DNA of 18,842 nt from UHGV virus genome UHGV-0125022; one strand, 5' to 3'. Both the position numbers and the translations under genes were made by a program. The first letter of the stretch is position 1; every line of letters starts with the position of its first letter. This DNA comes from a virus. Below are positions 1 through 14,602 of the stretch, piece after piece. The notes beneath the pieces were generated by a model. It had not been told where the DNA came from. It saw only the letters and a list, made by a program, of their open reading frames with translations, and ran no database searches.

Positions 1-16
1 CGAGCGACATTGCTCC

Positions 17-44
17 GTGTATTCACTCGTTGGAATGAATACAC
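17..44. repeat. Perfect 9-bp inverted repeat (GTGTATTCA ... TGAATACAC, 10-nt spacer) just beyond the 3' end of the leftward 67-aa ORF
   Basis: Arms are exact reverse complements, read directly from the sequence. No flanking T-tract, so terminator function is unproven. Confidence 0.5.
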
Positions 45-49
45 AGTGC

Positions 50-250
50 TTATTCGCGAGCTTTGAGCATTGCGTCTGCAAACTTATATGCAGCGCTTGC
101 TGCATAATTAACAGCTCCATCAGAATCATTATCGATAATCGATGGATTGCTAATCATTGCTTGCATAGCCTTTGCCGCGAAGTAATCACGTAATGTCGCA
201 TCACTTGCCATTTCTGGGCGTTTGATATCTGCTTCATAAAACTCGCACAT
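50..250 (-). CDS. Hypothetical small protein (about 66 aa), distal gene of the leftward early (pL) operon
   Basis: ORF track 50..253 minus. ATG at 250-248 overlaps the upstream stop as TGATG. GGAGGT Shine-Dalgarno a few nt upstream. No recognisable motif. Confidence 0.5.
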   Translation of the reverse strand: MCEFYEADIKRPEMASDATLRDYFAAKAMQAMISNPSIIDNDSDGAVNYAASAAYKFADAMLKARE

Positions 251-501
251 CACTCACCTCCAAGAGCTTTGCTGATTGCTGACAGTGCTTTCGATACTTC
301 ATCAGGATAATGGTCATTCAATTTTTGCTTGTATGCCTTGTTTAGCATCGCTTGCAGAGCTTCGAGCAAATCAGGAGCTGCCTCCATCAATCTCACATCA
401 TCTCGATGGATGGTTGTATCGTCAAACGTGAAATAAACCCCATCATCGTTAAATCCAGCGCCAACAACATTCCATGGCCTTTTCATTCTTCCTACTGTCA
501 T
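250..501 (-). CDS. Hypothetical small protein (83 aa), leftward early operon
   Basis: ORF track. GAGGTG Shine-Dalgarno 5 nt upstream of the ATG. Stop overlaps the next start. Confidence 0.5.
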   Translation of the reverse strand: MTVGRMKRPWNVVGAGFNDDGVYFTFDDTTIHRDDVRLMEAAPDLLEALQAMLNKAYKQKLNDHYPDEVSKALSAISKALGGE

Positions 502-540
502 TATTCACCTCTGTGTATTTATGCCAAAAATAAAGGCCGA

Positions 541-855
541 CTATGTGGCTTTATATCTGCGCACTGAAATAATTGGGCAGTGTGTAATTCCAGCAGTCTT
601 TTCCCATCTCAACAATGGGATGCGGAATACTTCGAACTCCACCTTCCCGATATGGTCGTTTTGGAAATCCTTTTTCCCCACCAACCAAACCTTTTCAAAT
701 CTACGCTCTATAAGGAAAGCTGATGACCATCCATATTTAGAACCAGCTTTTAACGCTTCCTTTTTTGTCGGAAAGGTTGTAACAATGGAAATTATCTCAT
801 CAACTCGGAGACTTAAAAGATTATTGTCTTTAAAGCTAATTCCGTTCGACGCCAT
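541..855 (-). CDS. Hypothetical protein (104 aa), leftward early operon
   Basis: ORF track. GAGGGA Shine-Dalgarno about 7 nt upstream of the ATG. Same strand as the operon, which is why it is preferred over the overlapping plus-strand ORF 521..895. Confidence 0.45.
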   Translation of the reverse strand: MASNGISFKDNNLLSLRVDEIISIVTTFPTKKEALKAGSKYGWSSAFLIERRFEKVWLVGKKDFQNDHIGKVEFEVFRIPLLRWEKTAGITHCPIISVRRYKAT

Positions 856-918
856 AATTCATCCCTCATACAGTGGTTTGCTGCCAAAACAATGAACCAT
901 CCGGAAATTCCAGATAGT

Positions 919-1143
919 TCATAATTCACTCTTCAATACTTCCAACTTACTAATCGCCGATAGATATCCGCGCTGATAGGGCATCATCATTCCTTCGAGC
1001 TTGCCACTTCTTAACTCATCCCTGAGCAATTGTATTGCTTGATCAATAACCTCTGCCTTAGCGTCCTTTATGGCTTGCTTGCGGGGCTTTGCTTTCTGCT
1101 TTGGCAGATTTCTCAAGCATGATGGTATGTATGTCTGATTCAT
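919..1143 (-). CDS. Hypothetical small protein (about 74 aa) immediately downstream of N
   Basis: ORF track 919..1146. ATG at 1143-1141 sits directly after the N stop (TAA GTG ATG) with GAGGT upstream. Confidence 0.5.
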   Translation of the reverse strand: MNQTYIPSCLRNLPKQKAKPRKQAIKDAKAEVIDQAIQLLRDELRSGKLEGMMMPYQRGYLSAISKLEVLKSEL

Positions 1144-1146
1144 CAC

Positions 1147-1530
1147 TTACCTCGCTGTCAGTTGTTTTGATTTCCTGTAGCCTGCCGCGTAAATGGCTAC
1201 GTTTGGAAGACATACACCAGTTTCTGGTTGCTTATGTCCAAACTCATTCGCGTACACAATGGCCGCTCGCTCCAGATTGCGTCTGTATTCTTTCTGTTGC
1301 CAGATCACGTCCTGTGCCATGAACTTAATTGGCTTAGCGTCTTCTATGCGCTCAGGCGTTTCGTGAGTACCTTTAGCCTGAATCTGCGATCTGCTTAGAG
1401 TAGGGCGGTGTAATACTTCTGAACTTATTGCTTCTTCGCGGGCCAGTACGCCGTTAGCTAATGCCTTTGCCTTTAAACGCTCACGACGACGAGAACGTGA
1501 ATTGCCTTTGAACTGAGTTCTGCGTGTCAT
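1147..1530 (-). CDS. N: Transcription antitermination protein N (P22 gp24-like)
   Basis: N-terminal arginine-rich motif (RSRRRERLKAKA). C-terminus CLPNVAIYAAGYRKSKQLTAR resembles the P22 N C-terminus as I recall it. AGGAGG Shine-Dalgarno 6 nt upstream. Sits downstream of a boxB hairpin on the same strand. Confidence 0.8.
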   Translation of the reverse strand: MTRRTQFKGNSRSRRRERLKAKALANGVLAREEAISSEVLHRPTLSRSQIQAKGTHETPERIEDAKPIKFMAQDVIWQQKEYRRNLERAAIVYANEFGHKQPETGVCLPNVAIYAAGYRKSKQLTAR

Positions 1531-1791
1531 ATAGACCTCCTGATGAACTTTGGTGGTGTGGTGGCTGGTAGTCTAGCTCCAGCTTGTTGAGTCTCATTCG
1601 GAGGGGTATAACCGGCACCCCAGTGATTTTTCCATGCGACAACGTGCGCGTTATGGCGGCCTTATCGCCCGCGGCTCCCCATCTCGTCCACGCTATTGCT
1701 AGCGTTGGGAGCGCTTCACCGCTCAACAGTAGGTAAGCACTTGCCAGTGACTAGCTGGCTTCACCACACCCCAAAGTTCACTTTGGTTATT

Positions 1792-1806
1792 GCGCTTTGT
1801 CAGCGC
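1792..1806 (-). promoter_or_regulatory. nutL boxB hairpin (GCGCUGACAAAGCGC on the leftward transcript)
   Basis: 5-bp stem GCGCU/AGCGC with GACAA loop, the same loop as the nutR boxB at 4828-4842. No canonical boxA (CGCTCTT) found upstream of it. Confidence 0.6.
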
Positions 1807-1859
1807 CGTAGATTCATATTCGAATCGTTGTATATTCACCGCCCTGGTGAGTAGTGCGT

Positions 1860-1935
1860 CCTGCTGATGGGCAAACTTTATCGGAATGATAAATTAATGG
1901 CAATAGCAAAATGATAAATTCTTTTGATTTTCAAA
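1860..1935 (-). promoter_or_regulatory. Putative OL/pL region: repeated TGATAAAT operator-like motifs with a candidate leftward promoter (-35 TTGCCA, -10 TAAAGT)
   Basis: TGATAAAT at 1887-1894 and 1912-1919; the same motif recurs in the cI-cro intergenic region. Promoter hexamers are a by-eye assignment. Confidence 0.35.
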
Positions 1936-2104
1936 TATCGTATTGATTCTTATGGTGTTTTATTTTGTTGTAGGAATTCGACAGGATAAATAAAGAGATT
2001 TGAGGGAGATCTGGATTGCGTGGTTTAGCAAGTTGTATCAATCAGTTTTTCAATAAATACAATGAGTTATGTTTTTTAGGTGGGGGATCGAGAGGCAAAG
2101 AAAA

Positions 2105-2128
2105 CCCGGCGCTGAGGCCGGGTGAGAT
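2105..2128 (-). terminator. Rho-independent terminator closing the minus-strand cI cargo operon
   Basis: Minus strand reads CCCGGCCUCAGCGCCGGG (6-bp GC stem) followed by UUUUCUUUG, immediately after the stop of the 310-aa ORF. Confidence 0.6.
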
Positions 2129-2129
2129 A

Positions 2130-3062
2130 TTAAAGAACCGATTTAACAAGATGGTTTTTACGGTACAGACCTATGCGATCATTGTGAATCTCAGTAGTCT
2201 CCACTAAAAGAGAAACAATCTGTCCGACCTTGTGTTTTTTTTGTATTAAATCTAGCATTTCAATCGGATAGGAAGCCTTTAAATGTTCACCACCAACATC
2301 AAGCTCCAGCTTCCCATATTTGGATAGAACGACCAGTTCGCCTGTAACCGTTTCAGTAATGGGAGGTGATGAAATGGTTGATGTAAGTCTACTCACCAAG
2401 TACTTAATTTTATTGGAGTCAATAGTTACCACCTTGGTGCCATTACTAAATGGACCGGTCCAACTTGCATCAAATGTTAAGTTGTGTTTATCGCATTCCT
2501 CTACGATTCTCTTAAGGCTTACAGTGGAATTGTATCCAATTTCAGCGACGTGATTCATGAAGTTGTTGTCGTCATCGCTTAACAACAAATCGAATATGCC
2601 TTTTACAGCCTTGCTGGGTACTGTTTCTACTAATTCTGCTATTCCTGTAGAGAAGGTGACGCCCAATTTTGTAGACCCAGGGGATAAATCAGCCAGCCTG
2701 AGGTTTAAGGAGCTTTTCACGTCGTAGGGAACTTTTTTTGAGTCCTTGCCTGAGGCAATTTTGTGTGTTGCTCTTTGTATTAGCGCTGCAAGATTTGTTG
2801 AAATAGCCCCAAGCAGCTCTAAAGGAATAGAGCCAAAGTCAACCTCAGAGCCTTTCAGCCGCAGCTCAAAAAAATCGATAAGTGGGTGCCGACTATCTTG
2901 CTTTAATTTTTCGGCCTTCAAATCGCTCAGATGAGAATCCATGGAGCGATAAAGAAGCATGTCAGCAAAGGACCTGGTTTTGTTTTGCTTCATTGCATCG
3001 ACTTCTTTTTGAATGAAATCAATGCGTTTATCGCAATTTTTAAACATTGATTTATCATTCAT
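2130..3062 (-). CDS. Hypothetical 310-aa protein, distal gene of the two-gene module downstream of cI; candidate superinfection-exclusion or defence effector
   Basis: Long ORF with GAGGA Shine-Dalgarno 8 nt upstream. Start overlaps the upstream stop as ATGA. AT-rich. No motif I can assign. Confidence 0.7.
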   Translation of the reverse strand: MNDKSMFKNCDKRIDFIQKEVDAMKQNKTRSFADMLLYRSMDSHLSDLKAEKLKQDSRHPLIDFFELRLKGSEVDFGSIPLELLGAISTNLAALIQRATHKIASGKDSKKVPYDVKSSLNLRLADLSPGSTKLGVTFSTGIAELVETVPSKAVKGIFDLLLSDDDNNFMNHVAEIGYNSTVSLKRIVEECDKHNLTFDASWTGPFSNGTKVVTIDSNKIKYLVSRLTSTISSPPITETVTGELVVLSKYGKLELDVGGEHLKASYPIEMLDLIQKKHKVGQIVSLLVETTEIHNDRIGLYRKNHLVKSVL

Positions 3063-3538
3063 AAAAAAATCCTCACTAACCCTTTCGGGTTTTCACTGCG
3101 ATCAAAACCAAACCAACCGCGCCAGTAGCTACGCCAGTACTCATAATCATAGTTAGGGTCATCTAAATTCTTCATGAGTAGTAGGACATCAATTTTGTAG
3201 TTTTGTTTGATGTAGTTTCGGTCAAGCAAATTATCGACGCGGCCCCGAAGCATGACAGGTATTGAGTTTATATTGCTATAGTCACATACCAACAAAATAT
3301 CAATATCATCAGGCTCTGGTTTAGACGTGGTGTATGAACCATCAACCCATATTTCTGTAAAACAGCCATATTGAGCAGATAATTCTCGAATAGATTCGAG
3401 TAGCTGTATAAAATTACAGTATAGCATGCCTCGCCTGGATGATGAAGGAAAGCAATCGACACAATACGATTTTAATCCAGCTTCATCCATGTCATGGAAC
3501 CCTGGCTCAAACAGGGGTGGGTAATTAATTTTATCCAT
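3059..3538 (-). CDS. Minimal nucleotidyltransferase (Pol-beta superfamily, MNT-like) fold protein, 159 aa
   Basis: WVDGSYTTSKPEPDDIDILLV matches the hG[GS]-x9-13-Dh[DE]h nucleotidyltransferase signature. A further Asp-bearing strand KIDVLLL lies downstream. AAGG Shine-Dalgarno upstream. Confidence 0.65.
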   Translation of the reverse strand: MDKINYPPLFEPGFHDMDEAGLKSYCVDCFPSSSRRGMLYCNFIQLLESIRELSAQYGCFTEIWVDGSYTTSKPEPDDIDILLVCDYSNINSIPVMLRGRVDNLLDRNYIKQNYKIDVLLLMKNLDDPNYDYEYWRSYWRGWFGFDRSENPKGLVRIFL

Positions 3539-3737
3539 AAAAAACCTTGCTATACATTTGTTTTTTTATTAAAAATCTAACCACCGAAATGGTGACGGCA
3601 AGATGTTACATGGGGTTACAATCAGCCAATACACCGCATTAAATAATTTTTTCACCAGCTATGCGCCGACCAGAACACCTTGCCCATCACCCAAACGTCT
3701 CTTCAGGCCACTGGCTATCAGCTATGGGACGATGAAG

Positions 3738-4442
3738 TCACGAACTTTTCAGCCACTCCCTTGCCTCGATGTCATCCAGATGGCGAGATTGCTTCAGAAT
3801 ACCAGCCACATACTCCACCTTTGCTACTTGATGATAAGGCAACGTTATTGGCCTGTGGTCTTGGTTGATGCTTGTAAATTGGTATTCTCCATCTCTGTCA
3901 TAGCCAAGAACCTTAATCATGTTGTGTCCTTCAACGGTTCTGACAAACACCTCATCACCCGGGAATACTTTGGTGTTAGGCTCAATGAGTACATATTCTC
4001 CTGATTTTATTCTAGGCCACATGCTGTCTCCTTTCACACGAAGGCCAAAGGCATCTGGATCATCGCTATAAATTTTGAGCCACCCATCGCGCTCTTCGGT
4101 CATCTCGATGGCACCATCAACACCAAGAATTGCCTCACCAACCACGCGCACTAACCCTTTTCTTACCTGACCGACAAAAGTTAAAGAATCTGAGCATGAT
4201 GCAATTGGTGTTACATCATGTACCAAATCAAGCCACCCATTAGGTAACCCAAGTGCGGCTTCAAATTTTCTTGCTAGTTTATCCCCTATGTTTCGAGTGC
4301 TTTTTTCACCGGAGACTTGCGTGAGTTGAGAAGGGCTAACCCCAAGCTTATCGGCAAAGCTTGCATTAGTGTTACCCGCGATTTTTTTATGCTCATCTAG
4401 CAAAAACGCCAGATTCGATTTGCGAATATCTTTGTTTTCCAT
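3738..4442 (-). CDS. cI: CI-type prophage repressor (N-terminal HTH plus C-terminal S24/LexA-like autopeptidase domain)
   Basis: 234-aa protein with an HTH-like N-terminus and C-terminal S24-type domain (GDSMWPRIKSGEYVLIE, then a downstream Lys). Divergent from cro across an operator-rich intergenic region. Confidence 0.9.
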   Translation of the reverse strand: MENKDIRKSNLAFLLDEHKKIAGNTNASFADKLGVSPSQLTQVSGEKSTRNIGDKLARKFEAALGLPNGWLDLVHDVTPIASCSDSLTFVGQVRKGLVRVVGEAILGVDGAIEMTEERDGWLKIYSDDPDAFGLRVKGDSMWPRIKSGEYVLIEPNTKVFPGDEVFVRTVEGHNMIKVLGYDRDGEYQFTSINQDHRPITLPYHQVAKVEYVAGILKQSRHLDDIEAREWLKSS

Positions 4443-4555
4443 CTCACAATTTTCCCTCTATTTAGCAAATGGATAAATACGCAATATGATAAATTTACAT
4501 TGCGGTTGATTTATCAAAATGGTAAAGTTATTCTGTATGATAAACGGAGGCACTA
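4443..4555. promoter_or_regulatory. OR region with divergent pRM/pR promoters; repeated GATAAA(T) operator-like motifs
   Basis: GATAAAT at 4472, TGATAAAT at 4487-4494, its inverse ATTTATCA at 4509-4516, and TGATAAAC at 4538. Lies between the divergent cI and cro starts. Confidence 0.6.
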
Positions 4556-4789
4556 ATGAGTAATGAACTACTACGCTGGCGAAAAGAGGCTTCTAGTGAG
4601 GAATGGAAGCGACTCGCCGCATTAGCGAAAACTTCAGTTGGCTATCTTGACCAGATTGCATATGGATTTCGAAGAGCTTCCCCTGATAAAGCGAATGCAA
4701 TCGAAGAAGCTACTCGTAATTTCACGGCCTATAAACCCGTGAAAAAGGAAAACCTGGTGTTCGTATCGCGTAGAGCATCAGCAGCATAA
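4556..4789 (+). CDS. cro: Cro-like transcriptional regulator
   Basis: 77-aa protein divergent from cI. ACGGAGG Shine-Dalgarno. Position and size are typical of cro. Confidence 0.75.
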   Translation: MSNELLRWRKEASSEEWKRLAALAKTSVGYLDQIAYGFRRASPDKANAIEEATRNFTAYKPVKKENLVFVSRRASAA

Positions 4790-4796
4790 GTAACAC

Positions 4797-4842
4797 CGCT
4801 CTTTTCACAATGGACATTCGTCCTACGTCGCTGACAAAGCGA
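4797..4842 (+). promoter_or_regulatory. nutR: boxA (CGCTCTTTT, 4797-4805) and boxB hairpin (UCGCUGACAAAGCGA, 4828-4842)
   Basis: boxA matches the CGCTCTT consensus. boxB is a 5-bp stem with GACAA loop, paralogous to the nutL hairpin. Located just after the cro stop. Confidence 0.7.
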
Positions 4843-4927
4843 GCCCCAAGATATCTGACCAACTAAGGTCATATGAGTTTCCACGCATACCTTTCAACTA
4901 ACTATTCACTATTGGAAATATTAAGAA

Positions 4928-5224
4928 ATGACACAAGCAAGTTACAGCAAGCCAACACAGCGAGAAATTGATCGCGCTGAAACTGATTTACTCATCAACC
5001 TGTCAACGCTTACCCAGCGCGGTTTGGCAAAGATGATTGGCTGTCATGAATCGAAGATAAGCAGAACGGACTGGAGGTTTATTGCTTCGGTCTTGTGTGC
5101 TTTCGGAATGGCATCAGACATCAGTCCGATTAGTAGGGCTTTTAAGTATGCGCTTGATGAAATCACAAAGAAAAAATCCCCGGCCGCCACCGAGGATTTT
5201 AAGCAAATTGATATGCAATTCTGA
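4928..5224 (+). CDS. cII: CII-like transcriptional activator
   Basis: C-terminal KKKSPAATEDFKQIDMQF resembles the lambda CII C-terminus as recalled (KKRPAATERSEQIQMEF). Position between cro and O. Confidence 0.8.
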   Translation: MTQASYSKPTQREIDRAETDLLINLSTLTQRGLAKMIGCHESKISRTDWRFIASVLCAFGMASDISPISRAFKYALDEITKKKSPAATEDFKQIDMQF

Positions 5225-5256
5225 GGTAATTACTGGATCAATCCACAGGAGTCATT

Positions 5257-6102
5257 ATGACAAATACAGCAAAAATACTCAACTTCGGCAGAGGTAACTT
5301 TGCCGAACAGGAGCTAAGAGTGGCTGATATCGATGATGGTTACACCAGATTCGCTAACGAGCTGCTGGAAGCTATCGCAAGTGCCGATTTAACCGCTCGC
5401 CAGTTGAAAGTTATGCTGGCCTACGTCCGGAAAACATATGGATTCAATAAGAAAACAGATCGAATAGCCGATGAGCAAATTGCTCAGTTAACAGGACTAT
5501 CAAGGCAGAATGTTAACAAGGCTAAAAAAGAACTGATTTCAATGAATTGCCTGTTTATGGATGGAAATCAAATCGGTGTAGACAGGGAGGTATCTGCGTG
5601 GCAATTCAGCAAGTGTCTCCAAGTTAGCAACTTTGTCTCGAAGTTAGAGACAAAAAATGTCTCCAAATTAGAGACACTCAATGTCTCGAAGTTAGAGACA
5701 CACAAAAGACATTCTTTAAAGACAAAAGAAAATATTAATAAACCCCCTATATCCCCCAAAAAAATTTCTCAGAAGTTCGACCCGCTAGAAACAGAGTTGC
5801 CTGATTGGTTATCGGCAGAAACATGGTTGTCGTGGGTTACCTATCGCAAGGAGATAGGTAAGTCGATCAAGTCTAAGCAAAGCGTCACTCAGGCTATCAA
5901 CGTTCTAAGCAGAAGTCTGGAGAAGGGATATACACCTGAAGAAATTATAAACCAGAGCATCGCCAGTGGTTGGCAGGGGATTTTTGAACCCAAGACTCCA
6001 AAGGGGAAATCTCAACCGAGGCCGCAGCAGCGAGCTATGCAGGAAAACTTTGCCGCCAAAGATTACGGGCAAACTGAAATGCCTTCATGGGCGCAGGAGT
6101 GA
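5257..6102 (+). CDS. O: Replication initiator O (lambda O-like N-terminal domain)
   Basis: N-terminus MTNTAKILNFGRGNFA...DDGY matches lambda O as recalled. Internal repeat peptide VSKLET x3 is encoded by the origin iterons. Confidence 0.9.
   Translation: MTNTAKILNFGRGNFAEQELRVADIDDGYTRFANELLEAIASADLTARQLKVMLAYVRKTYGFNKKTDRIADEQIAQLTGLSRQNVNKAKKELISMNCLFMDGNQIGVDREVSAWQFSKCLQVSNFVSKLETKNVSKLETLNVSKLETHKRHSLKTKENINKPPISPKKISQKFDPLETELPDWLSAETWLSWVTYRKEIGKSIKSKQSVTQAINVLSRSLEKGYTPEEIINQSIASGWQGIFEPKTPKGKSQPRPQQRAMQENFAAKDYGQTEMPSWAQE
5614..5745. repeat. Origin of replication inside O: four about 19-bp palindromic iterons (TGTCTCnAAnTTAGAGACA; one degenerate) at 24-bp period, then an AT-rich tract
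   Basis: Iterons at 5614-5632 (degenerate), 5634-5652, 5658-5676 and 5682-5700. AT-rich ACAAAAGACATTCTTTAAAGACAAAAGAAAATATTAATAAA follows. Same architecture as lambda ori. Confidence 0.8.
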
Positions 6103-6104
6103 AT

Positions 6105-6998
6105 ATGAATACGACAAATGGTTACAATCTGGCACTGCAAAGGCAACTTGTAGACTCAAAAATCAATGACATTTCTGATCTGAAACAGAAACTTGAGTTT
6201 AGCAAAATTGGATCAGTATCAGATGGAATGTCAGTTACCAGCACAGTGGAAGAGTGCGAGAAACACGGTAAATATACTTCCTATGAGAAATATCTGACCA
6301 TCTCAGGAAAAAGAATTACTTCAAGTAAATCTGAGTGCCCACAGTGCCTTGAGGAGAAAATTCGTAAGAAAGAGATTGAACGTGAGCAGGCAGAACAAAG
6401 AGCAAGACAATCAAAAATTGAATATTTGTTGAATTCTCTCAATATTCCAGAGAGGTTCAAAAATTGCACTCTTCAGAATTATGAGCCTGTTAACGATGAT
6501 GCAAAGCGAGTTCTTAAGGTATGCCAGGCATATGCCAGTAAGTGGCCTGAACGCCTTCAAAAAGGTGGCGGACTGGTCATGTGTGGTAAGCCTGGAACTG
6601 GAAAGAACCACCTTGCACTGGCTATCGCTAGGCACGCCATTATCGAGCATCAAAGCTCTGTGATATTTACCACTGCGTTGAAAATTGCCAGAGAGTACAA
6701 ATCAACATGGTCTAAGGCCGCAACCAGAACTGAAGAAGAAGTCATTAGGCAATTTACGCATCCTGACTTGTTAATAATCGATGAGGTTGGCGTGCAGTTC
6801 GGCAGTGATGCTGAAAAGCTAATCATGTTCGAAATTATCAACACCAGATATGAATACATGAAGCCAACAATCCTGATTAGTAATCAGAGCAAAGATGAAC
6901 TTTCGGCATTCATTGGTGAGCGTGTTATTGACAGGATGAATGATGGCGGAGGGTGCACTCTTGCGTTTACATGGGATAGTTACAGGAGCAGATCGTGA
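6105..6998 (+). CDS. DnaC/IstB-type AAA+ helicase loader (functional counterpart of lambda P)
   Basis: Walker A GKPGTGKNHLA and Walker B LLIIDEVG. AGGAGTGA Shine-Dalgarno before the ATG at 6105. The ORF track extends to 6087, but 6105 is preferred. Confidence 0.85.
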   Translation: MNTTNGYNLALQRQLVDSKINDISDLKQKLEFSKIGSVSDGMSVTSTVEECEKHGKYTSYEKYLTISGKRITSSKSECPQCLEEKIRKKEIEREQAEQRARQSKIEYLLNSLNIPERFKNCTLQNYEPVNDDAKRVLKVCQAYASKWPERLQKGGGLVMCGKPGTGKNHLALAIARHAIIEHQSSVIFTTALKIAREYKSTWSKAATRTEEEVIRQFTHPDLLIIDEVGVQFGSDAEKLIMFEIINTRYEYMKPTILISNQSKDELSAFIGERVIDRMNDGGGCTLAFTWDSYRSRS

Positions 6999-7285
6999 CT
7001 GGAAAAGAAATCATCCTGGAATATCTGAAAACTCATGAACAATTCTCCCCACATGAATTAGCTCTGATCACCGGAATACCAAATAACAGAATCGCTCAAG
7101 CAGCAAGGCATATGGTGAAACAAGGGCATTTGAGTGTTGTTGAGCGTAAGTGGAAGATGGTTATTTATGCAAAGCGCAAAGTGAAGAAGGAGCCAATTAA
7201 AAGAAATCCAGATGGTACGGGGTGGGGATGTGCAAATCCAATGACGGCGTTTATTAATAGGGCGCTTATGGAGGTAAGGCAATGA
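6995..7285 (+). CDS. ren: Ren-like protein
   Basis: N-terminus MTGKEIILEYLKTHEQF resembles lambda Ren (MTGKEAIIHYLGTH...) as recalled. GTG start overlapping the upstream stop. Confidence 0.65.
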   Translation: MTGKEIILEYLKTHEQFSPHELALITGIPNNRIAQAARHMVKQGHLSVVERKWKMVIYAKRKVKKEPIKRNPDGTGWGCANPMTAFINRALMEVRQ

Positions 7286-7310
7286 CCATCTACATCACTG
7301 AGCTAATAAC

Positions 7311-7342
7311 AGGCCTGCTGGTAATCGCAGGCCTTTTTATTT
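7311..7342 (+). terminator. Rho-independent terminator (tR2-like) between the replication genes and the nin region
   Basis: Perfect 8-bp stem AGGCCTGC/GCAGGCCT with an 8-nt loop, followed by TTTTTATTT. Confidence 0.65.
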
Positions 7343-7597
7343 GGGGGAGAGGGAATTGGAGGCTTTAAGAAATGAGTACGATAGCTTAGCTTGTCAGGGC
7401 TAATTTTCGTGAAGAGTTGGTGCGTTGGTATCGGTATCGTTCATCGTCCAGTTTGCCGATTGATGAGTTGTATGAGCATTCACCTGCTGCACTACGCTAT
7501 CCGCGTGACCGTGTTCTTCGACGGTTGTCCAAACTCAACAATGAGTTTCAGCGCAACAGAATTATTCGGAGTCTGGATTTAAAGTAAAGGAGTGAGC

Positions 7598-7804
7598 ATG
7601 ACAAATCAGCAGCAAATAGAGTTCATCCTTGAGCAGATTCGAAAAATGCGAGAAAAGAACCAGCCAGACATGATGGAAATATGGAGACGCCAGCAGGAAG
7701 AATACCGCAAGCATATTTTTGGTGAGAGAAAACAGGATGACTGGAGCCTATATGGCTATGGCACCAGGACAAATAAAAACGGATATAGCCTTTACACATA
7801 TTGA
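7598..7804 (+). CDS. Hypothetical protein (about 68 aa), first gene of the nin region
   Basis: ORF track 7592..7804. AAGGAG Shine-Dalgarno 5 nt upstream of the ATG at 7598. Confidence 0.5.
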   Translation: MTNQQQIEFILEQIRKMREKNQPDMMEIWRRQQEEYRKHIFGERKQDDWSLYGYGTRTNKNGYSLYTY

Positions 7805-7812
7805 GGAATTCC

Positions 7813-8223
7813 ATGAAACAGACAATTTTCCTCAGGAGTAAGCAACAACAGCAAGCCGCAATCACCGCCATCCTCGCAACACCACTCGATAAAGACAAGC
7901 CAGTTACCATCCGCATTACTGACTACAAGCGCAACCTTGACCAGAACGCAAAATTTCACGCGATGCTGGCGGATATCGCAAGTCAGGTTCAATGGTGCGG
8001 CAAATGGTTAAAACCAGAACAATGGAAGGTTTTGTTGATAAGCGGTCATGCAGTGGCAACAAAGCAGGAAGCTGATGTTTTGCCCGGGCTTGAAGGTGAA
8101 TACGTCAACATTCGCGAAAGTAGCGCGCAGATGAGCGTGAAGCGCATGGCAAGCCTGATTGAGTACACGACAGCATGGGCTATTGGTCAGGGTGTCAGAT
8201 TTACCGACAGGAGGTACGAATGA
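7813..8223 (+). CDS. ninB: NinB (Orf-family recombination mediator)
   Basis: Resembles lambda NinB as recalled ([32 protein letters not shown] versus IQERNRSLDQNRKLWACLGDVSRQVEWHGRWL). GAGG Shine-Dalgarno before the ATG at 7813. Confidence 0.85.
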
Positions 8224-8396
8224 GACGACAGCGACGAAGTATCACCGACATAATCTGCGAAAACTGCAAATACCTTCCAACGAAACGCTCCAGAAATAAA
8301 CGCAAGCCAATCCCAAAAGAATCTGACGTAAAAACCTTCAACTACACGGCTCACCTGTGGGATATCCGGTGGCTAAGACATCGTGCGAGGAAATGA
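8220..8396 (+). CDS. ninE: NinE-like protein
   Basis: [27 protein letters not shown] matches lambda NinE as recalled. ATGA overlap with the ninB stop. GGAGG Shine-Dalgarno. Confidence 0.75.
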
Positions 8397-8758
8397 CAAT
8401 GGATTATTCACAGTTAAGTGATTTTGAAATTAACGTGGCGGTATTCGAAGCCATTCATAACGGATCACCGGATTACAAAGAAGGTGAGAATGGCGATATG
8501 GTGTTTGTCTCATTTGAGGGAGACATTGTAAACGGAGACGCAGTTGAAGTAGAAGTTGAGCGCGGATCCTTTAACCCATGCGCAAACCCAGCAGACTCAT
8601 GGCCGATTATTGAAAAATACAGGATTAGCATTATCAATCTCGATGAAGACGAGTGGGGTGCACGTGGTGTGGCCTACTGTAAATCTAAGCGAGCTATACA
8701 TAAAAATCCCCTTCGCGCCGCCATGATTGTCTTTCTCATGATGCAGAGAATCCAATAA
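8393..8758 (+). CDS. Hypothetical acidic protein (about 121 aa), nin region
   Basis: ORF track 8357..8758. ATG at 8393 overlaps the ninE stop (ATGA); alternative ATG at 8399. Confidence 0.55.
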
Positions 8759-8934
8759 TGCTTAGCCCATCCCAATCCCTTCAATACCAGAAAGAAAGCG
8801 TCGAGCGGGCTTTAACGTGCGCTAACTGCGGTCAGAAGCTGCATGTGCTGGAAGTTCACGTGTGTGAGCACTGCTGCGCAGAACTGATGAGCGATCCGAA
8901 TAGCTCAATGTACGAGGAAGAAGACGATGAATGA
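8758..8934 (+). CDS. ninF: NinF-like small Cys-rich protein (58 aa)
   Basis: Hand-translated: [58 protein letters not shown]. Too short for the ORF track. TAATG overlap with the upstream stop. Matches lambda NinF as recalled. Confidence 0.7.
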   Translation: MLSPSQSLQYQKESVERALTCANCGQKLHVLEVHVCEHCCAELMSDPNSSMYEEEDDE

Positions 8935-9649
8935 GTTAATAAATGGCAATGCCATCAAAATGACAAGCATTGAAATCGCTGAGTTGGTGGGTAAGCGTCA
9001 TGACAATGTGAAACGTACCATCGAAACGCTGGCTAAAAATGGTGTTATCCGGCTTCCTCAAATTGAGGTTTCCGAAAGAATCAATAACTTAGGGTTCAAT
9101 GTTCAGTACGAGCATTACGTCTTCGAAGGCGAACAAGGTAAGCGAGATAGTATTGTTGTTGTTGCCCAGTTGTCGCCAGAGTTCACCGCTCGCCTTGTTG
9201 ACCGCTGGCGAGAGCTTGAAGAAACTGCGGTTAATATCCCCAAAACGCTACCAGAAGCGTTGCGCCTTGCTGCTGATCTTGCTGAGCAGAAAATGCAACT
9301 GGAAAACCAGCTCGCAATTGCCGCACCTAAAGTTGAGTTTGCCGATCGCGTTGGCGAGGCCAGCGGAATTTTGATTGGAAACTTTGCAAAGGTTGTTGGA
9401 ATTGGTCCAAACAAACTGTTTGCGTGGATGCGCGATCACAAAATCCTTATTGCTTCAGGTTCCCGGCGCAATGTGCCAATGCAGGAATATATGGAGCGCG
9501 GCTATTTCACAGTGAAAGAAACAGCGGTCAACACAAATCACGGAATACAGATATCGTTCACCACAAAAATCACCGGGCGTGGTCAACAGTGGCTGACCAG
9601 AAAGCTGCTCGATAACGGAATGCTGAAAGTAACAGGGGAGGCTGCTTAA
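8927..9649 (+). CDS. Phage antirepressor (N-terminal Rha-type domain plus C-terminal KilA-C/AntB-type domain)
   Basis: N-terminal SIEIAELVGKRHDNVKRTIE is the Rha-family hallmark. 240 aa with the C-terminal region typical of KilA-C antirepressors. Confidence 0.75.
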   Translation: MNELINGNAIKMTSIEIAELVGKRHDNVKRTIETLAKNGVIRLPQIEVSERINNLGFNVQYEHYVFEGEQGKRDSIVVVAQLSPEFTARLVDRWRELEETAVNIPKTLPEALRLAADLAEQKMQLENQLAIAAPKVEFADRVGEASGILIGNFAKVVGIGPNKLFAWMRDHKILIASGSRRNVPMQEYMERGYFTVKETAVNTNHGIQISFTTKITGRGQQWLTRKLLDNGMLKVTGEAA

Positions 9650-9939
9650 TGGCCAATCTACGCAAAGAAGCACGCGGCAGAGAATGTCAGGTACGTATTT
9701 ACGGCGTATGCAATGGCAATCCTGAAACTACAGTTCTGGCACATTACCGGATGGCTGGAATTTGCGGAACGGGAATGAAACCTGACGACCTGATCGGCGC
9801 ATGGGCTTGTAGCGACTGCCACGCGGAGATCGACCGACGCACCCATAACCTCGACAACAAAGACGCCAGACTTTACCACCTCGAAGGCGTGATCAGGACG
9901 CAGGCGATACTGCTGAAGGAGGGGAAGATTAAACCATGA
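9649..9939 (+). CDS. YbcO-like protein (DUF1364; Cys/His-rich putative nuclease)
   Basis: RGRECQVRIYGVCNGNPETTVLAH...CSDCHAEIDRRTH resembles E. coli DLP12 YbcO as recalled. TAATG coupling with the upstream gene. Confidence 0.75.
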   Translation: MANLRKEARGRECQVRIYGVCNGNPETTVLAHYRMAGICGTGMKPDDLIGAWACSDCHAEIDRRTHNLDNKDARLYHLEGVIRTQAILLKEGKIKP

Positions 9940-10298
9940 ACGAATATCAGTTTGTGCTTCCATACCCGCCGTCGCTGAATACCTACTGGAGAAGACGGGG
10001 AAGCCAATACTACATCAGCGATAAAGGCCAGAAATACCGAAAAGACGTTCAGAAAATCATCCGCCAACTTAAGTTAGACATTTTCACTAAATCACGACTC
10101 CGCATCAAAGTCATCGCAGACGCTCCAGACTCCCGCCGCCGCGACCTCGATAACATCCTGAAAGGTTTACTCGACTCACTTATCCATGCCGGATTTGCGG
10201 AAGACGACGAGCAATTCGATGACATTCGCGTAATTCGTGGTGTGAAAGTACCAGGTGGAAGGCTTGGAATAAAAATCACCGAACTGGAGAACGCATGA
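9936..10298 (+). CDS. rusA: RusA Holliday-junction resolvase
   Basis: 120 aa with RusA hallmarks (LPYPPSLN, DSRRRDLDN, GGRLGIKITELE). ATGA overlap upstream. Confidence 0.9.
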   Translation: MNEYQFVLPYPPSLNTYWRRRGSQYYISDKGQKYRKDVQKIIRQLKLDIFTKSRLRIKVIADAPDSRRRDLDNILKGLLDSLIHAGFAEDDEQFDDIRVIRGVKVPGGRLGIKITELENA

Positions 10299-10483
10299 AC
10301 GCCACAATTCAAACGATACCAGAGCTTCTTATCCAGACACGAGGCAATCAGACCGAAGTGGCGAGGATGCTTTCCTGCGCAAGAGGAACAGTGCTCAAGT
10401 ACAACCGAGACAGAAAAGGCGAGCGTCACGTAATAGTTAACGGCGTCCTGATGGTCAAACAGGGCAAGAGGGGTAGACCATGA
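10295..10483 (+). CDS. ninH: NinH-like protein
   Basis: TIPELLIQTRGNQTEVARMLSCARGTVLKY resembles lambda NinH as recalled. Located just before Q. Confidence 0.75.
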   Translation: MNATIQTIPELLIQTRGNQTEVARMLSCARGTVLKYNRDRKGERHVIVNGVLMVKQGKRGRP

Positions 10484-11103
10484 GACTCGAAAGCGTAGCT
10501 AAATTTCATTCGCCAAAAAGCCCGATGATGAGCGACTCACCACGGGCTACGGCTTCTGACTCTCTTTCCGGTACTGATGTGATGGCTGCTATGGGGATGG
10601 CGCAATCACAAGCCGGATTTGGAATGGCTGCGTTCTGTGGTAAGCACGAACTCAGCCAGAATGACAAACAAAAAGCCATCAACTATCTGATGCAATTTGC
10701 ACACAAGGTATCGGGGAAATACCGTGGCGTTGCAAAGCTTGAAGGAAATACTAAGGCAAAGGTACTGCAAGTGCTCGCAACATTCGCTTATGCGGATTAT
10801 TGCCGTAGTGCCGCGACGCCGGGAGCAAGGTGCAGAGATTGCCACGGTACAGGCCGTGCGGTTGATATATCAAAAACAGAGCTGTGGGGGAGAGTTGTTG
10901 AGAAAGAATGCGGAAGATGCAAAGGTGTCGGCTATTCAAGAATGCCAGCAAGCGCCGCATATCGCGCTGTGACGATGCTAATACCCAACCTTACCCAACC
11001 AACCTGGTCACGCACTGTTAAGCCGCTGTATGACGCTCTGGTGGTGCAATGCCACAAGGAAGAGTCAATCGCAGACAACATTTTGAATGCGGTCACACGT
11101 TAG
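10480..11103 (+). CDS. Q: Late-gene antiterminator Q (lambda Q type)
   Basis: 207 aa. Sequence matches lambda Q over essentially the full length as I recall it, including the zinc-binding CRDCHGTGR...CGRCKG. A lambda-like pR' follows. Confidence 0.9.
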   Translation: MRLESVAKFHSPKSPMMSDSPRATASDSLSGTDVMAAMGMAQSQAGFGMAAFCGKHELSQNDKQKAINYLMQFAHKVSGKYRGVAKLEGNTKAKVLQVLATFAYADYCRSAATPGARCRDCHGTGRAVDISKTELWGRVVEKECGRCKGVGYSRMPASAAYRAVTMLIPNLTQPTWSRTVKPLYDALVVQCHKEESIADNILNAVTR

Positions 11104-11145
11104 CAGCATGATTGCCACGGATGGCAACATATTAACGGCATGATA

Positions 11146-11183
11146 TTGACTTTTTGAATAAAGTTGGGTAAATTTGACCCAAC
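11146..11183 (+). promoter_or_regulatory. Late promoter pR' with qut region (-35 TTGACT 11146-11151, -10 TAAATT 11169-11174, 17-bp spacer)
   Basis: TTGACTTTTTGAATAAAGTTGGGTAAATTTGACCCAACGATGGGTTAAT is near-identical to the lambda pR'/qut sequence as recalled. Confidence 0.75.
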
Positions 11184-11206
11184 GATGGGTTAATGCCTTC
11201 GTTTAA

Positions 11207-11241
11207 AGCCCCGCGGATAACACCGTGGGGCTTTTGCGTTT
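11207..11241 (+). terminator. tR'-like terminator about 25-60 nt downstream of the pR' start
   Basis: AGCCCCGCGG / CCGUGGGGCU 10-bp stem with one G-U pair and an AUAACA loop, followed by UUUGCGUUUC. Confidence 0.6.
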
Positions 11242-11253
11242 CTGGAGGTAACG

Positions 11254-11272
11254 GCGAGGCGCTACCCTCGCC
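11254..11272. terminator. Second hairpin (GGCGAGG / CCTCGCC, 5-nt loop) between tR' and the 3' end of the convergent minus-strand gene; possible bidirectional terminator
   Basis: 7-bp perfect stem read from the sequence. Weak T-tracts on both sides. Confidence 0.4.
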
Positions 11273-11278
11273 TTAACA

Positions 11279-11695
11279 TTAAGGGAGGGTTTTCATTACG
11301 CTATCAATCTCCCTTCCTTCAAATCTTGAAGTCCAGCCGCAGGAGCCGCAATGGTAAGGAAAGTCATCGAACCCGCTACCGACCTGTTTAAGACAGTTGG
11401 GGCAATAAACCGCGCTGATATACCCACCCGCGGGATTTTTTCTAAAGGCCGCACCCATGTGCTCGACAAACTCATCCTTTGCCCGATAAGCCGCTATTTC
11501 CTTCTCAAGTTCTACGTTCTTGGCTTTCGCCTCGGCAAGTTCTGCTATGGTGGCAGCATGGGCTTTTTGAAGTACGTCGATCTGCTCTCCAATGAAAGCG
11601 ATGCGCTCGCGCAGGACCTCGTTACTTTGCACAGCAGAAAGCGCGCCGATCCCGTTTTTAAGGGACGCGATAAGTAATCCTACATCCATGGTCAT
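11279..11695 (-). CDS. Hypothetical cargo protein: N-terminal coiled-coil-like region plus C-terminal CxxC...CxxC zinc ribbon, convergent to late transcription
   Basis: 138-aa ORF. C-terminal CPNC-x14-CGSC. N-terminal heptad-like, Ala/Glu/Lys-rich segment. AGGGA Shine-Dalgarno. Start may be M1 (11695) or M3 (11689). Confidence 0.6.
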   Translation of the reverse strand: MTMDVGLLIASLKNGIGALSAVQSNEVLRERIAFIGEQIDVLQKAHAATIAELAEAKAKNVELEKEIAAYRAKDEFVEHMGAAFRKNPAGGYISAVYCPNCLKQVGSGFDDFPYHCGSCGWTSRFEGREIDSVMKTLP

Positions 11696-11944
11696 TCCCT
11701 AATTGTCTGTGGAATGACCAATTTAGCAATTTCCTTTATCTGTGGAAAGCAGGGAAACCACGCGCCGGGCGTGGATAAATATCCCGGTATTGAATCGACT
11801 GTTGGCTGCCGCTTGGCGGCCTTTTTCATTTCAGGCTCACGGGAATCATCCGCTACGTGCTTTGTTGATAAATCCATCCCGTGAAGCCTGACCCTTTTCA
11901 AACACACACACACAGCGCCATCCGAAAAATCGGAGGTGAGGCCT

Positions 11945-12268
11945 ATGAAAATGCCATACAAACAAGATTTCATCGCTGCGCTACTTGCCGCCAAGGAGCA
12001 GGGTATTGGTGCAATGCTGGCTTTTATCATGGCGTATCTGCGTGGTCGCTATAACGGCGGCGCGGTAACAAAAACGCTAATTGATGCGCTGATGTGCGCG
12101 ATGATTGCCTGGTTCGTTCGTGACCTTCTGGACTTTATCGGCCTGAGCAGCAACCTCGCCTACATAGCCAGCGTCTTTATTGGATACATCGGCACCGATT
12201 CGATCGGCAATCTTATTAAAAAACTTGCAGCAAAAAAGGCGGGAGTTGACGATGCAAACCAGTCCTGA
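11945..12268 (+). CDS. S: Class I holin S (lambda S type) with dual-start motif
   Basis: [27 protein letters not shown] resembles lambda S105/S107 as recalled. GGAGGTGA Shine-Dalgarno. ORF track begins at an in-frame GTG at 11936. Confidence 0.9.
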
Positions 12269-12701
12269 CGGAATTGCTCTGATAAAAAAATTTGAAGGTT
12301 GTCGGCTGACTGCTTACCCCGACCCCGGAACGGGAGATGCGCCGTGGACCATCGGCTATGGCTGGACCCATCCGGTTGACGGAAAGCCAGTAAAGCGCGG
12401 TATGACTATCGACCAGCAAACCGCTGACAGGCTTCTGAAAACAGGGCTTGTTGGTTATGAGAATGACGTGCTGAAAGTTGTCAGGGTGAAGCTGACACAA
12501 GGCCAGTTCGACGCACTGGTGTCGTTCGCTTACAACGTTGGGTCGCGTGCTCTTTCCACATCTACACTGCTGAAAAAGCTGAATGCTGGCGATATAAAAG
12601 GCGCGGCAGATGAATTTCTGCGCTGGAATAAATCAGGCGGAAAGGTGATGCCGGGGCTCACGAATCGCCGCAAGGCAGAGCGAGCTCTGTTCCTGTCATG
12701 A
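12252..12701 (+). CDS. R: Endolysin, GH24 phage lysozyme (P22 gp19 type; not the lambda R transglycosylase)
   Basis: C-terminal [11 protein letters not shown] and the overall sequence resemble P22 lysozyme as recalled. No SAR-like N-terminal hydrophobic segment. GGAG Shine-Dalgarno before the ATG at 12252. Confidence 0.85.
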
Positions 12702-13165
12702 TTAGCGCACTGGTTAAGCGTTACTGGCTGCAGTTGCTGGTGCTGGCGTTAATCGGCGCACTGGCTTTCTTCGTGAACCACTACCGCGACAACGCCATCA
12801 CTTACAGAGACCAGCGCGATAAGGCCACTGAGAAACTCCTCCTGGCGACCGCCACCATTAAAGACATGCAGACCCGCCAGCGTGATGTCGCTGCACTGGA
12901 TGCCAAATACACCGGAGAACTGGCTGATGCGAAAGAAACCATTGAGCGTCTGCATAGCGATGTCATTGCTGGCCGTAAGCGGCTGCAAGTCGCCGCCACC
13001 TGTGCAAAGTCAACGACCGGAGCCAGCAGCATGGGCGATGGAGAAAGCCCAAGACTTACAGCAGATGCTGAACTCAATTATTACCGTCTACGAAGTGGAA
13101 TCGACAAGATAACCGCGCAGGTTAACTACCTGCAGGAATACATCAGGACGCAATGCCTGAAATAA
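12698..13165 (+). CDS. Rz: Spanin inner-membrane subunit Rz (i-spanin)
   Basis: N-terminal TM segment then [17 protein letters not shown] and [13 protein letters not shown], close to lambda Rz as recalled. ATGA overlap with the lysozyme stop. Confidence 0.85.
12927..13112 (+). CDS. Rz1: Spanin outer-membrane lipoprotein Rz1 (o-spanin), embedded in the +1 frame of Rz
   Basis: Hand-translated 61-aa protein [25 protein letters not shown]... with lipobox LAVSGC and a Pro-rich mature part, wholly inside Rz. Confidence 0.7.
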
Positions 13166-13196
13166 TTTTTTTTGCAAATCACAAAGTCAATTTAAT

Positions 13197-13222
13197 GAGC
13201 CTCGCGATGCGGGGTTTTTTTT
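13197..13222 (+). terminator. Rho-independent terminator after the lysis cassette
   Basis: CCUCGC/GCGGGG stem (one G-U pair, short loop) followed by eight T residues. Confidence 0.5.
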
Positions 13223-13371
13223 ACATCTGAATTTCACAGCGCATCTCACGCGCATATTACATCACCCGAGCCTTTCAGAAAGTTGAGCCTGAGAACTGCC
13301 GTATATGGTGGCGACCATCTCGGGGCGGCTTTTCTGTGAGACAGGCTCACTTTCTAAAAGGTAAAGACGCT

Positions 13372-13890: not shown

Positions 13891-13950
13891 ACGCGGCATT
13901 ACAGAAGCCCTTCATTGAGGGGCTTCGATAATGGAGCACTGGAATTATTC

Positions 13951-14571: not shown

Positions 14572-14602
14572 ATTCTAGACTGGTATGGACGGATGGTGAA
14601 AT

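What the first reader, a model, noticed from the sequence alone, without database searches (positions are those of the whole stretch)
2130..3062. 310-aa orphan partner protein, in the position where BstA-type abortive-infection genes sit
The distal gene encodes a soluble-looking 310-aa protein with no transmembrane segment and no catalytic motif I can assign. Its translational coupling to the nucleotidyltransferase suggests stoichiometric co-function (effector or sensor). BstA-family abortive-infection proteins of about 300 aa are known to be encoded directly downstream of the repressor in some Salmonella prophages, so homology to BstA should be tested explicitly. I cannot confirm or exclude it from memory.
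Basis: inference. Interest (0 to 1): 0.65.

Follow-up and report, generated by a model that had tools for sequence, protein, structure and literature searches.

The report
Prophage nucleotidyltransferase partner protein, not BstA
The 310-aa gene is real but is not an orphan and not a BstA relative: it is the larger half of a widespread, already catalogued but functionally untested two-gene candidate anti-phage module (PADLOC PDC-M63), and it carries a C-terminal OB fold next to a small nucleotidyltransferase.

Summary
The ORF at 2130-3062 (-) is confirmed. It overlaps the upstream 159-aa gene by ATGA and lies between the cI repressor and a strong terminator, OL/PL and N. This is the slot that rexAB and bstA occupy in other phages.

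BstA homology was tested and rejected (BLASTP E=24, hhalign probability 0.1%, no KilA-N domain).

The protein is not an orphan. It matches PADLOC PDC-M63B (E 7e-45) and PHROG 6603, and 265 clusters match at 50% identity. Its neighbour matches PDC-M63A, which is Pfam DUF6932, a minimal Pol-beta-type nucleotidyltransferase with an intact GS...DxD motif.

The gene pair was found together in every context examined, from Enterobacterales prophages to distant metagenomic bacteria. It sits repeatedly just after an S24 repressor, or beside RM, TA, NACHT or helicase genes.

A remote relative, PDC-M02B, pairs with a DUF4365 nuclease instead. This suggests the 310-aa protein is a nucleic-acid-sensing or regulatory subunit and the small enzyme is the effector.

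Defence activity is unproven. The one published deletion gave no phenotype.

The parts
2130..3062 (-). Gene B: 310-aa PDC-M63B-family protein. It has an N-terminal helical hairpin (about residues 10-57), an alpha/beta middle region (about 62-227) with the invariant G129-S130 loop, and a C-terminal OB fold (about 229-310).
3059..3538 (-). Gene A: 159-aa DUF6932 / PDC-M63A minimal Pol-beta-superfamily nucleotidyltransferase. Catalytic residues G67-S68, D78-x-D80 and D117 are present, and the C-terminal motif RSYWRGWFGF is invariant.
   Evidence: Pfam DUF6932 E 1.7e-24. PADLOC PDC-M63A E 1.8e-41. Alignment invariants. A weak Pol-beta palm match aligns GS/DxD.
3059..3062 (-). ATGA start/stop overlap of A and B, consistent with translational coupling.
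   Evidence: The overlap is conserved in L003-L007, L009 and L010. The 14-nt overlaps in distant L013/L015/L018/L019 are read from the gene coordinates.
2104..2123 (-). Rho-independent terminator closing the cassette: a 7-bp GC-rich stem followed by a U tract, 7 nt after the B stop codon.
   Evidence: Fold energy -13.7 kcal/mol, z = -2.67 against shuffles.
3539..3737 (-). 199-nt spacer between the cI stop codon and the A start codon. It travels with the cassette up to position 3713. No convincing promoter or stable structure was found, so transcription by read-through from the cI promoters is inferred.
   Evidence: The promoter scan found nothing on the minus strand here. Fold z = -0.09. Cassette boundary.
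2086..3713 (.). Mobile mosaic cassette (spacer + A + B + terminator). It is 99.1% identical to phage mEpX1, although the adjacent cI-cro segment (3714-4895) is unrelated to that of mEpX1.
   Evidence: blastn of the window against L001.
3738..4442 (-). cI-type repressor (HTH + Peptidase_S24), immediately upstream of the cassette on the same strand.
   Evidence: Pfam Peptidase_S24 E 3.8e-16.
1875..1925 (-). OL/PL-like region downstream of the cassette. It holds two exact copies of the operator-like 11-mer AATTTATCATT and a promoter-like site. The N gene follows at 1147-1530.
   Evidence: N_peptide Pfam E 2.8e-15.

Best explanation
The 310-aa protein (B) is the larger, apparently non-catalytic subunit of a conserved two-gene module, catalogued as PADLOC candidate PDC-M63. 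Its obligate partner is the 159-aa DUF6932 minimal nucleotidyltransferase (A) encoded just upstream.

Shown: the module is a self-contained cassette (spacer, A, B, terminator) inserted between cI and OL/PL of a lambdoid prophage. Inferred: it is co-transcribed with the repressor in the lysogen, as rexAB and bstA are.

Inferred mechanism: B uses its C-terminal OB fold, and its conserved middle domain with the invariant G-S loop, to recognise a nucleic-acid or nucleoprotein cue produced by a superinfecting phage. B thereby controls or targets the A nucleotidyltransferase, which is the effector. A would nucleotidylate a macromolecular 3' end or a protein and abort the infection.

Confidence by step:
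- About 0.95 that B is a PDC-M63B family member paired with a DUF6932 NTase.
- About 0.85 that it has a C-terminal OB fold.
- About 0.5 that the module is anti-phage or anti-MGE.
- About 0.3 for the specific division of labour 'B senses, A executes'.
For: Family identity: PADLOC PDC-M63B and PDC-M63A hits, DUF6932, PHROG 6603 and 9194.

Strict pairing: A lies next to B in 6 of 6 genome loci and in E. coli and Providencia prophages. All seven distant DUF6932 genes examined are followed by a 309-321-aa gene. Three of these were checked against the B profile and hit it at E 1e-26 to 1e-105.

Lysogen-cargo position: the order is cI, A, B, terminator, OL/PL, N. The order S24 repressor-A-B recurs in the E. 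coli, Providencia and distant L020 prophages. GC content is 0.40 against 0.44-0.48 for the early-region neighbours, and the cassette is shared at 99% with the heteroimmune phage mEpX1.

Defence-type neighbourhoods: type I RM plus YoeB/YefM, NACHT/SNaCT5, a large helicase-nuclease, and a mobile element with RadC/Lar. PDC systems were themselves defined by being embedded in BREX, DISARM or type I RM loci.

B as sensor rather than enzyme: G129 and S130 are the only (near-)invariant residues across 70 diverse members. B is less conserved than A (34% against 43% mean column identity). B is a probable remote homologue of PDC-M02B (Foldseek E 7e-8; hhalign probability 85%, E 6e-6 over B 54-286; unrelated control 0.7%). 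PDC-M02B is preceded in the same order by a DUF4365 protein. DUF4365 is a nuclease domain found in the effector proteins associated with short Argonautes (abstract of PMC10810196). So the small upstream enzyme is the swappable part.
Against: - No experiment shows defence. Deleting PDC-M63AB in E. coli NILS69 changed neither EOP nor liquid-culture infection for 10 virulent dsDNA phages (bioRxiv 10.1101/2024.12.20.629700).
- OB folds also bind proteins and sugars. The OB segment is not basic (pI 6.8), so nucleic-acid binding is inferred only.
- The M63B-M02B link depends on the diverse profile. With the narrow profile A1 the probability is 0.65%.
- Two of the seven distant contexts are not defence-like: one is next to imuB-dnaE2 and one is in ordinary chromosomal genes.
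- No A-B complex model could be computed.
- Expression from the cI promoters is inferred from position, not shown.
Confidence: 0.45

Rival explanations
1. Type VII toxin-antitoxin-like module. A is an MNT-type antitoxin that keeps B, a toxic nucleic-acid-binding protein, inactive by nucleotidylating it, for example on the invariant Ser130. Infection interrupts the modification and frees B.
For: The gene order (small NTase first, overlapping the larger partner) is the same as in MntA/HepT, by established knowledge of type VII TA. A has the GSx9DxD motif. S130 is the only invariant residue of B. By the model's secondary structure it lies at the turn between two strands, 119-127 and 130-138. A is acidic (pI 4.7) and B is basic (pI 8.3).
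Against: B has no HEPN fold and no Rx4-6H motif. The relative PDC-M02B pairs with a DUF4365 nuclease, which is not a modifying antitoxin. The delta-M63AB strain says nothing about toxicity of B alone.
Confidence: 0.2
2. The pair has no defence role. It is an accessory DNA-metabolism function, such as ssDNA end or gap processing or a terminal-transferase-like repair activity, carried by prophages and other elements for their own or the host's benefit.
For: It combines a Pol-beta-type NTase with an SSB/RuvA-like OB fold. One homologue lies directly after an imuB-dnaE2 mutagenesis cassette. No defence phenotype was seen in NILS69.
Against: It is located in the immunity region rather than in the recombination or replication modules. 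It is shared as a cassette between heteroimmune phages. It is patchy and rare: 18 of 5426 complete E. coli genomes and 3 isolated phages. It repeatedly neighbours RM, TA, NACHT and helicase genes. A lacks any polymerase thumb or fingers domain at 159 aa.
Confidence: 0.2
3. B is a BstA-type single-protein abortive-infection factor with a cognate aba self-immunity element.
For: It has the same position downstream of cI and a similar length, 310 against 307 aa.
Confidence: 0.01
4. A RexAB-like exclusion system, with a sensor plus a membrane ion channel that depolarises the cell.
For: It occupies the same slot between cI and OL and has the same two-gene layout with its own terminator.
Against: Neither protein has a hydrophobic segment (maximum KD19 of 1.38 and 1.25), whereas RexB is a polytopic membrane protein by established knowledge. 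The PADLOC scan returned no Rex hit.
Confidence: 0.01

Closest known systems
PADLOC phage-defence candidate PDC-M63 (A = DUF6932, B = this family)
   Same: Both genes hit the PDC-M63A and PDC-M63B profiles nearly end to end and are adjacent in the expected order. The system has also been reported in an E. coli prophage.
   Different: Nothing structural differs. PDC-M63 is only a computational candidate (guilt by embedding), and it gave one negative test in its native host.
Phage mEpX1 hypothetical proteins XSB41149 and XSB41150 (PHROG 6603 / 9194)
   Same: 99.7% protein identity and 99.1% DNA identity over the whole cassette. The position after cI is the same.
   Different: The window's cI-cro and N regions differ from those of mEpX1. 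The cassette is therefore shared between heteroimmune mosaics.
PDC-M02 (DUF4365 protein + PDC-M02B, e.g. Leptospira phage LE1 genes 0038/0037)
   Same: The layout is the same: a small enzyme of about 175 aa upstream, then a 380-aa partner. The partner is a probable remote homologue of B over B residues 54-286, including the G-S motif.
   Different: The enzyme is a DUF4365 domain protein (a nuclease domain of short-Argonaute-associated effectors), not a nucleotidyltransferase. The N-terminal regions differ, and the homology is only moderately supported.
HepT/MntA (HEPN-MNT) type VII toxin-antitoxin
   Same: A minimal Pol-beta-type NTase is encoded first and overlaps the partner gene. The catalytic motif is GSx9-10DxD.
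   Different: The partner is 310 aa, has an OB fold and has no HEPN Rx4-6H motif. A belongs to DUF6932, with a unique RSYWRGWFGF C-terminal motif.
BstA (BTP1) and RexAB (lambda): cI-proximal prophage defences
   Same: The genomic slot between the repressor gene and OL/PL is the same, and a dedicated terminator is present.
   Different: There is no sequence or fold relationship. No KilA-N domain, no membrane protein and no identified aba-like element were found.
Bacterial SSB / RuvA domain I / RPA OB folds
   Different: Identity is 8-20%, and there is no match to the Pfam SSB family. The OB fold is fused to a 230-residue region with no solved relative.

Membership tests
BstA | Detectable sequence homology to BstA proteins | tested here: not met
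   BLASTP E=24. hhalign of the family profile against BTP1 BstA gives probability 0.1%. The PADLOC scan returned no BstA hit.
BstA | N-terminal KilA-N-like DNA-binding domain (PMC8585504) | tested here: not met
BstA | Encoded directly downstream of the prophage repressor and acts as a single gene | tested here: inconclusive
   The position is met. However, the gene is always paired with, and overlaps, an NTase gene.
BstA | Cognate aba DNA self-immunity element within the locus | not testable with these tools
   No repeats were found in the flanks. Demonstrating aba function needs genetics.
PADLOC PDC-M63 | Protein matches the PDC-M63B profile | tested here: met
   E 6.9e-45, residues 23-304 against profile positions 20-300 of 309.
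PADLOC PDC-M63 | Adjacent gene matches PDC-M63A (DUF6932) | tested here: met
   E 1.8e-41. Pfam DUF6932 E 1.7e-24, above the gathering score.
PADLOC PDC-M63 | Anti-phage activity | not testable with these tools
   The only published test (NILS69 deletion, 10 virulent phages) was negative.
HEPN-MNT (type VII TA) | MNT with hG[GS]x9-13Dh[DE]h catalytic motif | tested here: met
   G67-S68...D78-I-D80 is invariant in 43 homologues, and D117 is nearly invariant.
HEPN-MNT (type VII TA) | Partner is a HEPN protein with an Rx4-6H motif | tested here: not met
   No conserved R...H pair. A single member out of 70 gave a weak HEPN Pfam hit. The fold is an OB fold plus an unmatched region.
RexAB | Membrane-channel component (RexB) and RexA homology | tested here: not met
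   No hydrophobic segment. The PADLOC scan returned no Rex hit.
OB-fold nucleic-acid-binding proteins | Five-stranded beta-barrel with a helix between strands 3 and 4 | tested here: met
OB-fold nucleic-acid-binding proteins | Binds ssDNA or RNA | not testable with these tools
   Inferred from the top structural neighbours only. The OB segment has pI 6.8.

The most novel reading that the evidence does not exclude
M63B, M02B and probably M32A/DUF6575-type proteins form one superfamily of OB-fold 'sensor' subunits. They plug into interchangeable small effector enzymes: a DUF6932 nucleotidyltransferase here, a DUF4365 nuclease elsewhere. This would be an unrecognised modular class of prophage- and island-borne abortive-infection systems. 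In the PDC-M63 branch the effector would act by nucleotidylating a cellular or phage macromolecule when B detects phage nucleic acid.
Probability: 0.25. Interest if true: 0.7.

Novelty: already known. Interest (0 to 1): 0.42.

Why it matters
The cI-proximal slot of lambdoid prophages is a classic home of superinfection-exclusion genes such as rexAB and bstA. This cassette is a third, mechanistically unexplored occupant, and it is available in a tractable K-12 phage (mEpX1).

If PDC-M63 is active, it would add a defence system whose only enzyme is a 159-aa nucleotidyltransferase guided by an OB-fold partner. The link to PDC-M02 would show that this partner family is a reusable sensor scaffold.

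If it is inactive in defence, it is a useful warning about 'guilt-by-position' calls.

Tried and rejected
- BstA homology: rejected.
- Pfam and NCBIfam assignment of B: none for the window protein, and nothing consistent across 70 homologues.
- Sequence search of PDB with the single protein and with the profile: only coiled-coil noise.
- Foldseek against afdb50: library unavailable.
The close alignment A1 was used instead.
- Own promoter or structured RNA in the cI-A spacer: none found.
- Rfam, tRNA and repeat scans: empty.
- Identifying which Vassallo PD system carries DUF6575: not possible from the text or held supplements. The DUF6575 link therefore stays a lead based on one Foldseek hit.
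- Literature: no paper mentions DUF6932, and only one work mentions PDC-M63.

Full report
**Observation**

The window holds an ATG-initiated ORF of 310 codons at 2130..3062 on the minus strand, exactly as reported. Its start overlaps the stop of a 159-codon ORF (3059..3538) in the sequence ATGA.

On the same strand, upstream, lies an HTH/Peptidase_S24 repressor (3738-4442; Pfam E 3.8e-16). It is followed divergently by cro, cII and an O-type replication gene.

Seven bases after the stop of the 310-aa gene there is a GC-rich hairpin with a U tract (2123-2104). Its folding energy is -13.7 kcal/mol, z = -2.67 against shuffles. Next comes an OL/PL-like region with two exact copies of AATTTATCATT. 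A one-mismatch copy of this motif recurs in the OR region. The N antiterminator follows at 1147-1530 (Pfam N_peptide).

The gene pair therefore occupies the slot between cI and OL. This is where lambda carries rexAB and where BTP1 carries bstA (PMC8585504).

Neither protein has a hydrophobic segment: the maximum 19-residue hydropathy is 1.38 and 1.25.

**BstA test**

I fetched BTP1 BstA (L002:28112-29035) and compared it directly. BLASTP gives E = 24. A profile of 29 homologues against BstA gives hhalign probability 0.1%.

BstA is defined by an N-terminal KilA-N-like domain and a cognate aba DNA element. No KilA-N signal appears in Pfam for the window protein. None appears among the families listed for 70 homologues, and none in the fold searches. 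The PADLOC scan returned no BstA hit. The BstA lead is rejected.

**What the protein is**

- It is not an orphan. It matches PADLOC PDC-M63B nearly end to end (E 6.9e-45), and its neighbour matches PDC-M63A (E 1.8e-41). In PHROGs they are families 6603 and 9194, both of unknown function.
- The neighbour is Pfam DUF6932, E 1.7e-24.
- The DNA is 99% identical to phage mEpX1, where both genes are annotated as hypothetical.
- The indexed search found 72 clusters at 90% identity. All named sources are Enterobacterales, and the full-length hits are 309-315 aa.
- An exhaustive profile search of 1.84 billion representatives found 265 clusters with E <= 1e-3. Most of those listed are 300-330 aa, which indicates one architecture.
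- Neither Pfam nor NCBIfam covers the family.

**Pairing**

A-then-B adjacency holds in all six species genomes recovered. It also holds in an E. coli lambdoid prophage next to icd and in Providencia prophages, where the order cI-A-B-N/kil is the same.

Seven distant DUF6932 proteins (35-45% identity to A) were traced to contigs. Every one is followed by a 309-321-aa gene, usually overlapping. The three I checked hit the B profile at E 1e-26 to 1e-105.

Their neighbourhoods were:
- a type I RM system plus YoeB/YefM;
- a NACHT/SNaCT5 gene;
- a large DUF4011/AAA_11/AAA_12/MTES_1575 helicase;
- a mobile element with RadC and Lar;
- another prophage with S24 repressor-A-B order;
- two uninformative contexts, one of them next to imuB-dnaE2.

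This agrees with how PADLOC's PDC candidates were derived, namely from genes embedded in BREX, DISARM or type I RM loci.

**Cassette behaviour**

Window 2086-3713 is 99.1% identical to mEpX1, and 4896-7351 is 98.7% identical. The intervening cI-OR-cro segment has no match. So two heteroimmune phages share the spacer-A-B-terminator unit. The joints lie just past the terminator and 25 nt past the cI stop.

The two genes have 40% GC, against 44-48% for their early-region neighbours.

This allele is rare. It occurs in 18 of 5426 complete E. coli genomes and in three isolated phages out of 50,697 records.

**Structure of B**

An AlphaFold2 model built from 29 homologues has mean pLDDT 81. It shows three parts:
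- a helical hairpin (about residues 10-57);
- an alpha/beta middle region (62-227);
- a C-terminal five-stranded barrel with a helix between strands 3 and 4 (229-310).

Across 70 diverse members, S130 is the only invariant residue and G129 is nearly invariant. By the model's secondary structure these lie at the turn between strands 119-127 and 130-138. Other well-kept positions are mostly glycine, proline, tryptophan and hydrophobic residues. No nuclease, HEPN, PLD or other catalytic signature is present.

**Structure of A**

In 43 homologues the motif W-x-D-G-S...P-x-D-h-D and a later aspartate (D117) are invariant or nearly so. A C-terminal RSYWRGWFGF-x-R-x-E motif is also invariant. A profile search of PDB gives only weak hits (E 0.15), but they are to the DNA polymerase beta palm, and GS and DxD are aligned on the catalytic residues. 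A is therefore a minimal Pol-beta-superfamily nucleotidyltransferase that looks catalytically competent.

**A wider family**

Foldseek of the B model against viral predicted structures gave two significant hits:
- a 'DUF6575 domain-containing protein', E 2e-13;
- a 381-aa protein of Leptospira phage LE1, E 7e-8.

The LE1 protein is PADLOC PDC-M02B (E 1e-64). The 176-aa gene immediately upstream of it is PDC-M02A, which is Pfam DUF4365.

A profile of LE1-0037 homologues aligns with the diverse B profile at hhalign probability 85%, E 6e-6, over B residues 54-286. The G-S motif and the G-x-IPL motif are in register. An unrelated control gives 0.7%. The narrow B profile also gives only 0.65%, so I rate this link as probable, not certain.

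B also weakly matches PDC-M32A (E 3.6e-5). DUF4365 is a nuclease domain found in the effector proteins associated with short Argonautes (abstract of PMC10810196). DUF6575 is listed among the domains of the experimentally validated PD systems of Vassallo et al., but I could not establish which system.

**Mechanism**

Shown: the family identity, the obligatory pairing, the cassette layout in the immunity region, the OB fold, and the intact NTase motif.

Inferred:
1. The cassette is transcribed with cI in the lysogen. No separate promoter or structured element was found in the spacer.
2. It serves against superinfecting phages or other mobile DNA.
3. B is the sensing or regulatory subunit and A is the effector. 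The reasons are that B lacks catalytic residues, that B varies more than A, and that its relatives pair with a different small enzyme.

The main rival is a type VII TA-like arrangement in which A nucleotidylates B, with Ser130 as the obvious candidate site. A non-defence DNA-metabolism role cannot be excluded.

The only experiment in the literature argues for caution. Deleting PDC-M63AB from E. coli NILS69 had no effect on ten virulent dsDNA phages. The authors themselves note the narrow phage panel.

**Verdict**

The specific BstA hypothesis is wrong, and the 'orphan' label is wrong. The gene is a bona fide member of an already catalogued but uncharacterised candidate defence family.

What I add:
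- the OB fold;
- the cassette boundaries;
- the breadth and strictness of the pairing;
- the probable kinship with PDC-M02B, which gives a testable sensor/effector model.

Interest is moderate.

Noticed in passing
window 2086-3713 versus 3714-4895 and 4896-7351: Mosaic joints. The A-B cassette and the cII-O-P region are 99% identical to phage mEpX1, but the cI-OR-cro segment between them has no match. Heteroimmune phages therefore share the cassette.
   Followed up: partly
window 1885-1895, 1910-1920 (-), 4485-4495 (-), 3049-3059 (+): The operator-like 11-mer AATTTATCATT occurs twice exactly at OL and once with one mismatch at OR. A one-mismatch copy sits on the A/B start-stop overlap. There are 4 hits against 0.58 expected. 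The last copy is probably coincidental, because the cassette also sits in a phage with a different repressor.
   Followed up: partly
window 1-2094: The N/nutL side of the window resembles H-19B and Stx-converting phages (94-96% over about 225 nt), not mEpX1. The N protein is 127 aa (Pfam N_peptide).
   Followed up: no
window 541-855 (-) and 919-1146 (-): Two small genes downstream of N belong to PHROGs of unknown function: phrog_16670 (104 aa) and phrog_5305 (75 aa).
   Followed up: no
L022 38735-40413 (Leptospira phage LE1, genes LE1-0037 and LE1-0038): A DUF4365 protein followed by a 381-aa PDC-M02B protein has the same layout as A-B. The larger protein is a probable remote homologue of the 310-aa protein.
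   Followed up: partly
L011 6969-7466 (Providencia chromosome): In one Providencia prophage, a 44-aa ORF and a DUF3024 gene are inserted between cI and the A-B pair. The slot can therefore stack further cargo.
   Followed up: no
L018 2894-7626: One distant A-B pair lies directly after an imuB (IMS) and dnaE2-type polymerase cassette. This is the only context hinting at a DNA-damage-tolerance link.
   Followed up: no
window 1-18842: GC content rises from about 0.40-0.46 in the early/immunity region to 0.55-0.60 beyond about 14 kb. This fits a mosaic phage with late genes of different origin. No tRNA genes or Rfam families were found anywhere in the window.
   Followed up: no
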